From Spirochaetota bacterium (GTDB lineage Bacteria > Spirochaetota > UBA4802 > UBA5550): a stretch of 64,000 nucleotides of DNA. Location of the stretch: NCBI GenBank assembly GCA_029564515.1, contig JAKQPV010000087.1, positions 106,849 through 170,848 of the forward strand, written 5' to 3'. The position numbers and the translations under genes are program-made. The notes under the pieces were generated by a model, which saw only the letters and a list, made by a program, of their open reading frames with translations, was not told the DNA's origin and searched no databases. Each line of letters opens with the position of its first letter. Position 1 is the stretch's first letter. Below are positions 1-59,337 of the stretch, piece by piece.

Positions 1-33
1 TTTTAAATCCATGGTTTTCCTCTTTTAATACAT

Positions 34-417
34 CTAAACCTTATTTTTCTTAAGCTCTTTTAGGGGGATTATTTTCAGATACTCTTCTTCATTATTATTT
101 ATAGCATCCCAGAGGTCCACTTCGGTCTGCATCCCCAGCCAGTAATTCACTGTCGTATCAAAAAAACGCGCGAGGCGGATGGCCGTGTCCGTCGATATGG
201 CCCGTTTACCCAGGAGAACTTCATTGATGCGCACCCGGGTTATTCTCAGATAATCCGCCAGCTCTTGTTGGGTTATGCCCATGGGGTCAAGATATTCTGC
301 CTTTAAAATCTCGCCTGGATGCCTTGGGCGCGGCTCTTGTCCGGCATTTATAGTCTCATTTTTTAATTTTTTCAGCATCCTCTGCGCCCAATACTTGTAG
401 CGATAATGGTTGGCCAT
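34..417 (-). CDS. higA: HigA-family XRE-type HTH antitoxin (addiction module antidote protein)
   Basis: 127-aa ORF. The motif HPGEIL...GITQQELA..L.ITR.RINE...GKR.IS.DTA.RLA.FF.T....WL..Q matches the canonical HigA/VapI HTH core. No HigB-like ORF lies upstream, so it appears to be an orphan. Confidence 0.65.
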   Translation of the reverse strand: MANHYRYKYWAQRMLKKLKNETINAGQEPRPRHPGEILKAEYLDPMGITQQELADYLRITRVRINEVLLGKRAISTDTAIRLARFFDTTVNYWLGMQTEVDLWDAINNNEEEYLKIIPLKELKKNKV

Positions 418-949
418 GTAATGAGCAACGTTGCATATTGCAAGAAAAATTTATTTTTTTTGCAATCCTGAAATGGTTCAAATGAATTTGGCACTTAAAA
501 CAAAAAGATAGACCCAGCTTAAAGAAATATAAAAACCGAAAGAACTTAGCCATTAGAAGAAGACATTGAATCTTTCAGGATCAATCACTCTTGATCAACT
601 ATTTGATTCTCCCAATCTCAAAAATACAATTATATACTAAGGGATGCCTTTATAGAAAAACTCCATCAGATATTTATTCATATATGAGTGATTACACTTA
701 ATCTTCGTTTCTCGACTTCAAGTAAATCTTTGATTCATTTGTATGAGGTGGTGATCCGTGTGCCTGTTTGCTGACATCATTCGTCATTGGTAATTATTCC
801 ACTTCAAAAACAAACCCAAAACAACAAGTAACAGCGAACCGTAACTGATACCATTTTATAATCAAATTCTATTAAAATTTATTCTAAACTCCCATCCATA
901 GTAATGGAAGCATATCGCAACTTTTAAAAACCATCGTTATAAGAGACTA

Positions 950-990
950 CAAATCCGCAGGTTGCAGGTTCGACTCCTGCCGGGCGCGCA
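950..990 (+). other. tRNA 3'-end fragment (T-arm plus acceptor 3' strand), putative att-site remnant
   Basis: The sequence gcagg-TTCGACT-cctgc is a T-arm with a GGTTCGAnTCC-like loop. It is followed by the 7-nt acceptor 3' strand cgggcgc. No matching 5' acceptor strand (gcgcccg) occurs within 100 nt upstream. Confidence 0.5.
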
Positions 991-1011
991 TGAACAATCA
1001 GTGATCAGCAT

Positions 1012-1045
1012 AAAAAAGGACAGGTCAACAACCTGTCCTTTTTTT
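1012..1045. terminator. Bidirectional rho-independent terminator
   Basis: A6-ggacaggt-caacaa-acctgtcc-T7: a perfect 8-bp stem flanked by an A-run and a T-run. Confidence 0.7.
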
Positions 1046-1070
1046 ATTTCAGGTTCTATCACGCTTTTTT

Positions 1071-2297
1071 TTAATAATTATCAATACCGTTGCCGTTCCA
1101 GGAATCAGTTACCGTGTCCAGCTGCGGCACTTCTTCATCCGCCATCGGGGCCTTCAGTAAATGTTCCGGCAGGAAGGCCAGATTGGCAATGAGCGTCGGA
1201 ATCACGGCGCTTCCAATGACAGCCGCGATCAGGAACGAATACTGATCGCGTGTAACGATGCCGTGCGTCAGCCCATACAGGGCCGAGATCGAACCAAAGG
1301 TCAGGCCTGTGGACATGAGGAGCGTGTAATACCACCGCTCTTTCCTGCTTTCACGGAACCGCCCGATAACCGGGTAAAGACCGAATATTTTCGATATGAC
1401 CTTGCCGGCGAACAACACAAGGAATACCAGCGGTGCGGCGATGATCGCGGGAATCGACACGAGAAACCCGGCGCGCAGAAAATAGATCGGGGTGAGGAAG
1501 CCGATGGTAAGCGTGCGCAGGCGGCGGATGAAAAACTCGTCCTTAGCCACGCTCCCGGCGAGTACCATGCCCGCAATATAGGCCGGCAGGACCGGTTCGC
1601 TCCCTGCCCAGAGCGCGAGCGCGCCAAGACCGAACAGCACGAACACGATCCACTTCGTGCGTATGGCGGCGGTGCGGTTACCGTATATGCGGGTGAGCCG
1701 CGCCGTTATCGGCGTCATGATAAAGAATACCGCAACGCACGCGGCGATGAACACCAGGGTCCTGTATGAAAATGGTGCATAGATAAGCCCCAGCGCTATG
1801 ACCGTGCCCAGGTCATTGACGAAACAGGCCCCGAGTATCCCTTTCCCGTACTCGGTCTTGTTGAACCCGTATTCCAGCATGACAGCATAGACCACTGCCA
1901 TTGACGTGGTCGAGAGCGCAATGCCGCCAAGGAGGCTCGCGCGCGGGTCCCAGCCCAGAGCAAAGTACGCCAGGGCGGCGCATCCGAGGAACGGGGCCAG
2001 AAAGCCGATGAGCCCGACCACGGTGACCTCCTTCGCCTTTGTTCTGATCGAGACAGGATCGAGATCCGCTCCGGCCAGGAAAGTGAGGAGCACCGCCCCG
2101 GACCCGGCTATAAATTTCATCCATTCAGCGTTCGGCTTCAATATGTCAGGATCGAAGAAACGTGACGCAAGGTACCCGGCGAGCGCGCCCACGCAGATCT
2201 CCATAAGCGCCATGGATATTTTCAAGCGATTGGCAAGTAATGTGGACAGAACCGCCAGGCCAAGCCAGACCGTGGCAATGGTAAACATATCAAGCAT
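1071..2297 (-). CDS. Cation:proton antiporter (CPA family Na+/H+ exchanger)
   Basis: Polytopic membrane protein of about 12 TM segments with CPA-like glycine-rich helices. I moved the start to the internal ATG (MLDMF...), which lies 4 nt after a perfect AAGGAGGA RBS. The listed ORF extends to 2360. Confidence 0.75.
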   Translation of the reverse strand: MLDMFTIATVWLGLAVLSTLLANRLKISMALMEICVGALAGYLASRFFDPDILKPNAEWMKFIAGSGAVLLTFLAGADLDPVSIRTKAKEVTVVGLIGFLAPFLGCAALAYFALGWDPRASLLGGIALSTTSMAVVYAVMLEYGFNKTEYGKGILGACFVNDLGTVIALGLIYAPFSYRTLVFIAACVAVFFIMTPITARLTRIYGNRTAAIRTKWIVFVLFGLGALALWAGSEPVLPAYIAGMVLAGSVAKDEFFIRRLRTLTIGFLTPIYFLRAGFLVSIPAIIAAPLVFLVLFAGKVISKIFGLYPVIGRFRESRKERWYYTLLMSTGLTFGSISALYGLTHGIVTRDQYSFLIAAVIGSAVIPTLIANLAFLPEHLLKAPMADEEVPQLDTVTDSWNGNGIDNY

Positions 2298-2564
2298 GGA
2301 ATCCTCCTTAAAAAAACGGCATCCGCCCGGCGGCGGATACCGTTTTCCGACAGACCCCACCGCACGCTCGCGGCAGGAGTCATCAGCTGTTCATGACGGC
2401 GGTTATAGGGGGACTCCATCCCCGATGTTCAAATCGATGGACAATTAATATATCACAGCAATAATTTCAAGTAGATTAGCATGTAAAAAGTAAATTAAAT
2501 GGCTTGTCAGAACATTGCTCCGGCTGTATGGTAGATTTGAAAACAGGCGCCTCGATCGATCACT

Positions 2565-11213: not shown

Positions 11214-11383
11214 GTTTTCTTCTTATCATTTGACCGGCTATCACTATTATCGACAGTTCTCCGAGAAATAGTTATGCGGCATGAGGCCGTCACTTCCAGA
11301 GACACAATCGTTTTTTCTTTATCAGCATACGCTCAGATAATTAAAAAATATTCATAAATTTTAGCCTGTTCTAAATAAATTAG

Positions 11384-52191: not shown

Positions 52192-52715
52192 GACATCCTC
52201 CTGGCAGGCGGCTGGTAATTGCACCTGTTTATACTTGTGTATAATTTAATGCAATTCATTTTTCATGCCGCCCGGTCAATTAATTAGCCTGCCTGCTTAT
52301 TCCCTGATTATCACCGGTTTCTCCCTTTTTTGAATCGGGATTGGCCTGGATAACGCACCTTTCAAGCTACAGGTCCTTGTATTAATATATCAGAAATCAA
52401 GAAAGGGGCAAAAAAAGATCATAGTATTTCCTTCATTATAGGATTTTTATGCAGAATTGTGGAGAGCCTGATGAATAGCATGTTTATGGCAGAGATATGG
52501 CATATAGAAAACTAACGGCAGTGATCCGAATTTAAAAACCGCCTGTCCGTGTTCTTTTATGAACCAGCTGAAAAAATTATATTAATTATTATCATGAAAA
52601 AAGTTTGCCTATTTCAAGCAGGTTAATATTATATATAGAATCCTGAACAGCGGGCAATTAAGCCCATCATGCCGAAAAAAATAGAGGCGTTCAAACAAAA
52701 CCCGGGGGAGTTCCA

Positions 52716-59020: not shown

Positions 59021-59050
59021 TGCCCGTTTGCGGGCATTATCCTTTTTTTT
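59019..59050 (+). terminator. Rho-independent terminator
   Basis: atgcccg-tttg-cgggcat followed by T8. Confidence 0.7.
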
Positions 59051-59337
59051 ACAATTCTGTACGAACATCGGCCATAAACCGGCCTTCATAATTTTTTTTA
59101 TAATTCAATAATGACAATGCTGTATTCATGCAAAATTGACCCGATTTTTCACCTAAATTGAATTTCAACCTCATACGAAATCCAAAAAATAAGTTTACAT
59201 AATTATCCGCTTTATAGATATTATCATTTTAAATACGACTGTGCGGGTTTTTTTACCAGCCGGTCGCAACCTGTTCCAGAACACCGATACAGGGCTTGTA
59301 TATCGCGGTTACGTCTGAAAGTCATAGAGGAACCCAC

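What the first reader, a model, noticed from the sequence alone, without database searches (positions are those of the whole stretch)
1..1050. Probable right end of an integrated element: orphan HigA antitoxin, low-GC non-coding DNA and a tRNA 3'-end fragment
A HigA-family HTH gene has no HigB toxin partner. The upstream region is AT-rich and carries TTGCAA palindromes. HigA is followed by about 540 bp of low-GC DNA with no ORFs, which contrasts sharply with the rest of the window. At 950-990 there is a 40-nt tRNA 3' segment (T-arm GCAGG-TTCGACT-CCTGC plus the acceptor strand) that lacks its 5' half. This is the classic footprint of a tRNA-targeting integrase attR/attL duplication. A strong terminator separates it from the GC-rich core genome.
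Basis: partly seen in the sequence, partly recalled or inferred. Interest (0 to 1): 0.55.

Follow-up and report, generated by a model that had tools for sequence, protein, structure and literature searches.

The report
Right end of a tRNA-Arg island
Positions 945-990 are the displaced 3' end of a tRNA-Arg gene that marks the right border of an 11.3-kb DNA island, which some members of one uncultured spirochaete species carry and others lack; this is an ordinary kind of genomic island, unusual only because it has no integrase gene and carries a respiratory-complex-like operon.

Summary
Window 945-990 is the 3' part (positions 30-73 plus CA) of a tRNA-Arg(ACG) gene with no 5' half. An intact tRNA-Arg(ACG) with the same last 27 nt (44 nt with 3 mismatches) lies about 11.26 kb to the left of it, outside the window. 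A contig of the same species (99.94% identical flanks) has the empty site: one intact tRNA-Arg between the same two core genes, with the same terminator. So window 1-944 is the right end of a polymorphic island inserted in the tRNA gene. (1) No integrase gene is present; a suspected integrase remnant got no support in five searches, so the island fits an att-flanked element that has lost its integrase (a "CIME"). (2) The HigA-family gene is not a leftover of a toxin-antitoxin pair. It heads a conserved 9.85-kb block (HigA, an EIIA-HTH regulator, a hydrogenase-4-like operon, a carbonic-anhydrase-like gene) that is 86-87% identical in two related genomes at unrelated loci. (3) Low-GC intergenic DNA is common in this genome. 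This is a new member of a known kind, of moderate interest.

The parts
1..944 (.). Last 944 bp of an ~11.26-kb island. The rest lies to the left of the window: EIIA-HTH regulator, six-gene hydrogenase-4-like operon, 469-aa carbonic-anhydrase-like gene, 875-nt AT-rich left arm, then the intact tRNA-Arg.
   Evidence: The empty-site contig L266 is collinear with the window from 6297 down to exactly 945 (99.94%). It then continues into the far-side flank seen in L258. The repeat period is 11,259 bp in L259.
34..417 (-). HigA-family XRE helix-turn-helix gene. The likely true start is the second ATG at 378, giving 114 aa.
   Evidence: TIGR02607 at 103 bits and HTH_3. It is followed 22 bp later by the EIIA-HTH_17 gene. 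The conserved protein in L253 and L260 starts at MKKLKNE, and upstream of that the reading frame is not conserved.
431..443 (.). Inverted repeat TTGCA-N3-TGCAA in the HigA promoter region; a candidate operator.
   Evidence: The inverted repeat and about 45 nt around it are conserved in all three genomes that carry the block. DNA binding was not tested.
462..944 (.). AT-rich right arm of the island (483 nt, GC 0.32), non-coding.
   Evidence: Similarity of the cargo block to L253 and L260 stops at window ~455-461. The arm is absent from the empty site and contains only short ORFs.
799..884 (.). Conserved segment of the right arm, 61-146 nt from the tRNA-like core; a candidate recombinase or accessory-protein binding region.
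   Evidence: 71% identical over 87 nt to L257 4647-4733, which lies at the same distance from another tRNA-Arg 3' fragment. Local alignment score is 33, against 14.6 +/- 1.7 (max 20) in 100 shuffles.
945..990 (+). attR: 3' part of tRNA-Arg(ACG), tRNA positions 30-73 plus CA, without the 5' half.
   Evidence: Aligned with attB (L266), attL (L258) and the tRNA of L130. The last 27 nt are identical to attL, with three mismatches at tRNA positions 36, 43 and 48.
991..1070 (.). Native 3' flank of the tRNA gene, with a bidirectional terminator hairpin at 1012-1044 shared with the convergent antiporter gene.
   Evidence: Apart from one G/A difference (window 1051), the same flank follows the intact tRNA at the empty site. 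Hairpin energy is -18.7 kcal/mol, z = -5.5.
1071..2297 (-). CPA2 cation:proton antiporter gene, the first core gene to the right of the island.
   Evidence: Pfam Na_H_Exchanger. Orthologues at 82-91% sit in the same neighbourhood in relatives.

Best explanation
Window 945-990 is the right attachment site (attR) of an ~11.26-kb genomic island inserted into the 3' part of the chromosomal tRNA-Arg(ACG) gene of an uncultured Spirochaetota species.

Shown:
- An intact tRNA-Arg(ACG) (attL) lies next to the MamF-like gene.
- The island follows it: an 875-nt AT-rich arm, a 469-aa carbonic-anhydrase-like gene, a hydrogenase-4-like operon, an EIIA-HTH regulator, the HigA-family regulator and a 483-nt AT-rich arm.
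- The displaced native 3' end of the tRNA then follows, still attached to its own terminator, and after it the antiporter gene.
- Other members of the species have the uninterrupted site.

Inferred:
- The insertion was made by a tyrosine-type site-specific recombinase. It recombined a tRNA-like site on the element (44-46 nt) with the tRNA gene and rebuilt a working tRNA at attL.
- The mismatch pattern places strand exchange around the variable loop (tRNA positions 43-48).
- The island now has no integrase of its own. It is either fixed in place or moved only by an integrase supplied by a related element, which is the 'cis-mobilizable element' (CIME) state.
- The HigA-family protein is most likely a stand-alone repressor of the block's first promoter, acting through the conserved TTGCA-N3-TGCAA repeat. 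It is probably not an antitoxin.
For: Second copy and gene order.

Repeat alignment.

Empty site in the same species: L266 1-5353 matches window 6297-945 at 99.94%, and L266 5308-5909 matches L258 9116-8515 at 99.8%. L266 carries an intact tRNA-Arg, and one more similar contig exists.

Same core genes on both sides in the closest relative, L130, with no island at its intact tRNA-Arg, though two extra genes lie between that tRNA and the antiporter there.

Fragment boundary: it falls at the anticodon stem/loop, the usual left limit of tRNA-type att sites. This rests on established knowledge (Williams 2002, Nucleic Acids Res 30:866), recalled and not re-read here.

Conserved arm segment at the same offset beside a second tRNA-Arg fragment in L257.

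L257 shows a tandem layout: other genes, then a fragment, then the same left arm 875/875 identical. This matches the accretion model described in PMC5704250.

All nine island genes have non-recombinase assignments.

The block is 86-87% identical between genomes whose core genes are 66-76% identical. This suggests the cargo moved horizontally.

T48 of the empty-site tRNA is otherwise seen only in attR copies among 143 sequences.
Against: No integrase, excisionase or transfer gene was found in the island.

A short ORF plus frameshifted continuation just after attL looked to me like an integrase N-terminus. It had no significant hit in Pfam, PHROGs (best E = 0.043, an unannotated family), phage tblastn, the fetched loci or the 5.8-billion-protein search.

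The two arms share no repeats.

Cargo GC (0.53) is the same as the genome's (0.55). The same block sits in relatives without any tRNA or arms, so it may have entered an older, empty remnant.

The exchange point rests on three mismatches, and 4 of the 8 possible patterns would fit some exchange point.

No circular or attP junction was seen.

L257 could be a chimeric metagenome contig.
Confidence: 0.8

Rival explanations
1. The island spreads, and is lost, by ordinary homologous recombination and not by a site-specific recombinase. It would be gained through flanking core homology after DNA uptake. It would be lost by RecA-dependent deletion between the 46-nt direct repeats. The repeats would date from an old event that is no longer active.
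For: No integrase is present. A 3.3-kb tract at 99-100% identity is embedded between diverged sequence in L257, which is the footprint of homologous exchange. Flanks of the filled and empty sites are 99.9% identical, so exchange within the species is easy.
Against: This does not explain how a tRNA 3' duplication with a precise boundary arose in the first place. A RecA deletion should usually cross over in the 27-nt perfect part and leave C48. The empty site has T48, which needs an exchange inside the 4 nt between positions 43 and 48.
Confidence: 0.3
2. The fragment is only a decayed tRNA pseudogene left by a local duplication or rearrangement, and no inserted element is involved.
For: The locus is rearranged among relatives. 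TrkAH, the 230-aa gene and the GGGtGRT gene are present in some relatives and absent here.
Against: The presence/absence difference within the species is precise. It is bounded by the direct repeats, with identical flanks and an intact tRNA at the empty site.
Confidence: 0.03
3. The region is the end of a degraded prophage or plasmid-like element, and HigA is the surviving antitoxin of a lost HigBA addiction module.
For: The gene belongs to the HigA family. AT-rich DNA lies beside it.
Against: No phage or plasmid genes are present. There were no matches in IMG/VR or in GenBank phages. The gene is conserved at the head of the same operon in three genomes, none of which has a HigB.
Confidence: 0.05
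4. The filled and empty states are artefacts of metagenome assembly.
For: All the data are metagenome contigs. Some contigs break at the tRNA.
Against: The filled state is assembled independently in ENA, JGI, NCBI and Logan data, with at least ten contigs. The empty state is seen in two contigs. Breaks at the tRNA are what a real polymorphism would cause.
Confidence: 0.02

Closest known systems
Genomic islands and integrative elements inserted in the 3' part of tRNA genes by tyrosine integrases (P4-type and related; survey by Williams 2002, recalled from memory)
   Same: The insertion is in a tRNA gene. The tRNA is rebuilt at one end, and a direct repeat of its 3' part sits at the other end. 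The repeat starts at the anticodon stem/loop. An empty site exists in relatives. AT-rich arms lie next to the core.
   Different: There is no integrase gene next to the tRNA. The cargo has normal genome composition. No excision product has been seen.
CIMEs (cis-mobilizable elements): elements that lost their integration and transfer genes but kept attL and attR; they can be joined in tandem with an incoming element. Defined in PMC5704250, citing Pavlovic et al. 2004 and Bellanger et al. 2011.
   Same: Both att sites are retained and there are no recombination or transfer genes. A probable tandem arrangement with another element occurs at the same tRNA in L257.
   Different: CIMEs were described in streptococci as remnants of known ICEs. 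Here the parent element is unknown, and mobilisation in cis or trans is not shown.
Dehalococcoides islands carrying the vinyl-chloride reductase operon, integrated at the tmRNA gene ssrA (PMC3146451; abstract seen)
   Same: A metabolic operon is carried on a small island inserted site-specifically in a small-RNA gene. Presence varies among close relatives.
   Different: The target gene and cargo differ. I read only the abstract, so further comparison was not made.
HigBA type II toxin-antitoxin modules
   Same: The protein matches the HigA family model. A palindrome lies in its promoter.
   Different: There is no HigB. The gene is followed by a regulator and a membrane-complex operon, and it is conserved in that position.

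Membership tests
tRNA-targeted integrative genomic island | Inserted in the 3' part of a tRNA gene, with an intact tRNA rebuilt at one junction | tested here: met
   Intact tRNA-Arg(ACG) at L258 9041-9115, L259 608-682 and L256 9044-9117. It is followed by island DNA.
tRNA-targeted integrative genomic island | Direct repeat of the tRNA 3' part at the far junction | tested here: met
   Window 945-990 against attL: 27 nt perfect, 44 nt with 3 mismatches, same orientation, 11,259 bp apart in L259.
tRNA-targeted integrative genomic island | Unoccupied site in conspecifics or close relatives | tested here: met
   L266, same species at 99.94%. L130 has the same core genes on both sides and no island at its tRNA-Arg.
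tRNA-targeted integrative genomic island | Integrase gene inside the element, usually next to the tRNA | tested here: not met
   All nine genes have other assignments. The suspected remnant had no significant hit in five searches.
tRNA-targeted integrative genomic island | Excision to a circular form (attP junction) | not testable with these tools
   This needs raw reads or PCR.
CIME (cis-mobilizable element) | attL and attR retained | tested here: met
CIME (cis-mobilizable element) | Integration and transfer genes lost | tested here: met
   No integrase, relaxase or conjugation domains among the island genes. That they were once present and then lost is inferred.
CIME (cis-mobilizable element) | Mobilised by a related element after tandem accretion | tested here: inconclusive
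   L257 has other genes, then a related right arm, then a tRNA fragment, then the identical left arm. The contig ends before any intact tRNA or integrase, and it could be chimeric.
HigBA toxin-antitoxin module | HigA-family helix-turn-helix antitoxin | tested here: met
   TIGR02607 at 103 bits, cut-off 47.7.
HigBA toxin-antitoxin module | Adjacent HigB (RelE/ParE-fold) toxin gene | tested here: not met
   No ORF upstream in the window. None in L253 or L260 either.
Functional tRNA gene | Complete cloverleaf | tested here: not met
   ARAGORN finds none. Similarity to tRNA-Arg genes stops at position 30.
Prophage | Phage structural or replication genes, or similarity to viral contigs | tested here: not met
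   Gene content. Four IMG/VR scans and one phage tblastn found nothing.

The most novel reading that the evidence does not exclude
The island is still mobile although it has no recombinase. An integrase from a related element, such as the one to the left of the fragment in L257, would excise and insert it. In this way it would carry a so far uncharacterised module between spirochaete lineages. That module is a hydrogenase-4-like membrane complex whose 'large subunit' lacks the nickel-iron cysteines, paired with a carboxysome-type carbonic-anhydrase-like protein. It could be an ion-coupled CO2/bicarbonate-handling machine.
Probability: 0.15. Interest if true: 0.65.

Novelty: new member of a known kind. 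Interest (0 to 1): 0.4.

Why it matters
The result converts a guess from raw sequence into a documented case with all three sites (attB, attL, attR) recovered from natural populations of one uncultured species.

It shows that an eight-gene bioenergetic module plus its regulators can be a strain-variable accessory trait in anaerobic-digester spirochaetes.

It gives a defined target, a 46-nt site in tRNA-Arg(ACG), for finding the recombinase and related elements.

For annotation, it warns that a gene named 'HigA antitoxin' can be an ordinary operon regulator.

Tried and rejected
- Rfam on 1-1300 at E<=10 gave no tRNA hit. Half a tRNA is too weak for that test.
It did not return the source genome.
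It returned only more distant relatives, though these gave useful synteny.
- Four scans of viral contigs found nothing: the left-arm end, the core, the attP-type junction and the conserved arm motif.
- I suspected an integrase remnant after attL (MSNGKPCSLYRRNGIYYVHF... plus frameshifted continuation). Pfam, PHROGs, phage tblastn, tblastn on 259 loci and the last homologous-protein search gave no significant hit. It stays an unverified impression.
- I looked for repeats shared by the two AT-rich arms and found none above chance.
- A 469-aa gene near the antiporter in L132 looked like a possible inverted copy of the island's 469-aa gene. It is unrelated.
The id obtained through the listing of cluster members was accepted.
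- The hairpin just after attL is not more stable than shuffles, so I make no claim that the island supplies a terminator.

Full report
**What is in the window.** ORF 34-417 on the minus strand is a HigA-family helix-turn-helix protein (TIGR02607, 103 bits against a cut-off of 47.7; Pfam HTH_3). It is followed, on the plus strand, by 653 nt without a credible gene (GC 0.34). Next comes a convergent CPA2 antiporter gene at 1071-2297. Inside the gap, the 24-mer at 964-987 is unique in the window and absent from shuffles. ARAGORN finds no tRNA anywhere in the window. A perfect 14-bp hairpin with A and T runs lies at 1012-1044 (-18.7 kcal/mol, z = -5.5).

**The fragment is the 3' part of a tRNA-Arg gene.**
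- The 24-mer is the exact T-arm plus 3' acceptor strand of tRNA-Arg genes in more than 119 species-representative genomes. 115 of 121 occurrences lie inside complete tRNA-Arg genes and 5 are internal orphans.
- BLAST similarity of the window to these genes always begins at 944/945 and ends at 987-991. This corresponds to tRNA positions 30-73 plus CA.
- The anticodon loop reads CTACAAA, one base away from the ACG loop CTACGAA. The 5' half is not there.

**Low GC is not special here.** Many intergenic gaps in the window have GC of 0.34-0.46 against 0.55 overall. The gap in question is only the longest. The HigA gene (GC 0.46) is the most AT-rich gene in the window.

**What lies to the left of the window.**
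- Contigs that encode exactly this HigA protein show the next genes. An HTH_17 + PTS-EIIA regulator follows 22 bp after HigA. Then comes a six-gene hydrogenase-4/complex-I-like operon, and then a 469-aa gene on the other strand. No tRNA lies in those 10 kb.
- I obtained an id for the 469-aa protein by exact cluster look-up and reached the next 10 kb.
- After the 469-aa gene comes an 875-nt AT-rich stretch, then an intact tRNA-Arg(ACG). Beyond it are a MamF-like gene, two tRNA-Ser genes, a 220-aa gene, an amino-acid kinase gene, MurJ and so on.
- The intact tRNA and the window fragment are in direct orientation, 11,259 bp apart in L259.
- They share the last 27 nt exactly, and 44 nt with three mismatches at tRNA positions 36, 43 and 48.

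**Empty sites.**
- The closest relative with a long contig is L130 (antiporter 91% identical in protein, about 82% in DNA). It has the same core genes on both sides and one intact tRNA-Arg(ACG), with no island at it. Two extra genes lie there between the antiporter and the tRNA.
- More decisively, a contig that encodes the identical antiporter protein (L266, with one more similar place) has the antiporter, the same terminator, an intact tRNA-Arg(ACG) and the MamF-like gene in direct succession.
- L266 1-5353 equals window 6297-945 with three mismatches. L266 5308-5909 equals the far flank in L258 at 99.8%. The 46 nt shared by both alignments are the repeat.
- The island is therefore a precise presence/absence difference within one species, bounded by the repeat.
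- Contigs from the MamF side mostly carry the island, and two break at the tRNA.

**Where the exchange happened.** The empty site reads G36, T43, T48. attL reads G36, T43, C48. attR (the window) reads A36, C43, T48. With no later mutation, this needs an exchange between positions 43 and 48, or an overlap region that includes position 48. All relatives have C48. T48 occurs only in attR copies and in the empty-site tRNA among 143 sequences. This suggests that the empty site may be an excision or deletion product and not a never-occupied site. This is inference from three positions.

**The arms.** The cargo block's similarity to relatives ends at window ~455-461. So 462-944 is an island-specific AT-rich arm (GC 0.32), and the left arm has GC 0.36. 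The arms share no repeats. Window 799-884 is similar to a stretch of contig L257 that lies at the same distance from another tRNA-Arg 3' fragment (score 33 against 14.6 +/- 1.7 in shuffles). Both junctions read AGAGACTAC. In L257 the fragment is preceded by unrelated genes (a metallo-beta-lactamase fold protein, an HNH protein and a 525-aa protein). It is followed by the same left arm (875/875 identical) and 2.4 kb more at 99%. After that, the operon is only 66-76% identical. This looks like two elements in tandem at one tRNA with recent exchange, as in the accretion model summarised in PMC5704250. A chimeric contig cannot be excluded.

**No integrase.** All nine island genes have other assignments. 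A short ORF 134 nt after attL, with a frameshifted continuation, reminded me of integrase N-termini. Five searches gave no significant hit. I therefore do not count it as evidence. An att-flanked element without integration genes matches the published definition of a CIME.

**The HigA-family gene.**
- The 9.85-kb block from 38-44 nt upstream of HigA to just beyond the 469-aa gene is 86-87% identical in two other genomes, L253 and L260 (the latter a 4.8-Mb contig). There it sits between unrelated genes, without arms or tRNA.
- Core genes of those genomes are only 66-76% identical to this species. The block has therefore probably moved between lineages.
- More distant relatives have the block without HigA.
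- None has a HigB.
- The inverted repeat TTGCA-N3-TGCAA and its surroundings are conserved in all three HigA-bearing genomes. The second TTGCAA at 460-465 is not conserved.
- The conserved protein starts at the second ATG.
- The simplest reading is a stand-alone repressor at the head of the operon.

**Verdict.** The corrections are as follows. The element has no integrase. It is small (11.26 kb). Its cargo is a hydrogenase-4-like operon with regulators. HigA belongs to that cargo. It is a new member of a known kind. Confidence in the insertion, the repeat and the polymorphism is very high. Confidence that a site-specific recombinase made the insertion is good but indirect.

Noticed in passing
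window 2367-2432 (-): Fluoride riboswitch (Rfam RF01734, 53.9 bits against a gathering score of 34) directly upstream of the CPA2 antiporter gene 1071-2297(-). The antiporter is probably fluoride-regulated.
   Followed up: no
L259 1568-10964 (island cargo, left of the window): The hydrogenase-4-like operon's NuoD/HycE-like 496-aa subunit has no CxxC nickel-iron motifs; it reads AGDT where CGIC is expected. The neighbouring 469-aa protein is weakly similar to carboxysome shell carbonic anhydrase (Pfam PF20686 E 2.6e-4; PDB 2fgy E 1.3e-3). This may be a non-hydrogenase ion-coupled complex linked to CO2/bicarbonate.
   Followed up: partly
L257 4793-8092 vs L256 9074-12368: A 3.3-kb tract is 99% identical (the 875-nt left arm is 100%) between two organisms whose adjoining operon genes are only 66-76% identical. 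It starts exactly at the tRNA-Arg 3' part. This is either recent recombination or a chimeric contig.
   Followed up: partly
L253 9993-19852; L260 9923-19857: The HigA-to-469-aa block has sharp ends and sits in three unrelated chromosomal contexts in three related genomes. It is 86-87% identical, while core genes are 66-76%.
   Followed up: partly
L071 5434-5457, L083 7172-7195, L085 6529-6552; also L015 5002-5025 and L121 3622-3645: These are orphan tRNA-Arg 3' parts in other phyla. Three of them share an unusual upstream context (...GGTAAGCTAAGCCGTAGG...) that is not a normal tRNA 5' half. They might be another conserved element.
   Followed up: no
window 52225-52715, 59021-59295, 11214-11383: Other long low-GC non-coding gaps (GC 0.35-0.37), with no Rfam family at gathering score.
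   Followed up: no
L130 7002-9810 and 11409-13120; L131, L132: Relatives carry TrkA/TrkH between the radical-SAM gene and the antiporter. They also carry a 230-aa gene plus a GGGtGRT-domain gene between the antiporter and the tRNA-Arg. Both sets are absent in this species, so the locus is a rearrangement hot spot.
   Followed up: no
L259 10290-10964 (-): The N-terminal HTH of the EIIA regulator reaches the cut-off of the excisionase-family DNA-binding domain model TIGR01764 (29.2 against 28.8 bits). The gene is conserved in non-island copies of the block, so it is probably a regulator and not an excisionase.
   Followed up: no
L258 9041-9115 and relatives L141, L160, L191, L232: The tRNA-Arg(ACG) of this spirochaete family has a T4-G69 wobble pair in the acceptor stem (GCGTCCG / CGGGCGC). 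L130 has T4-A69.
   Followed up: no
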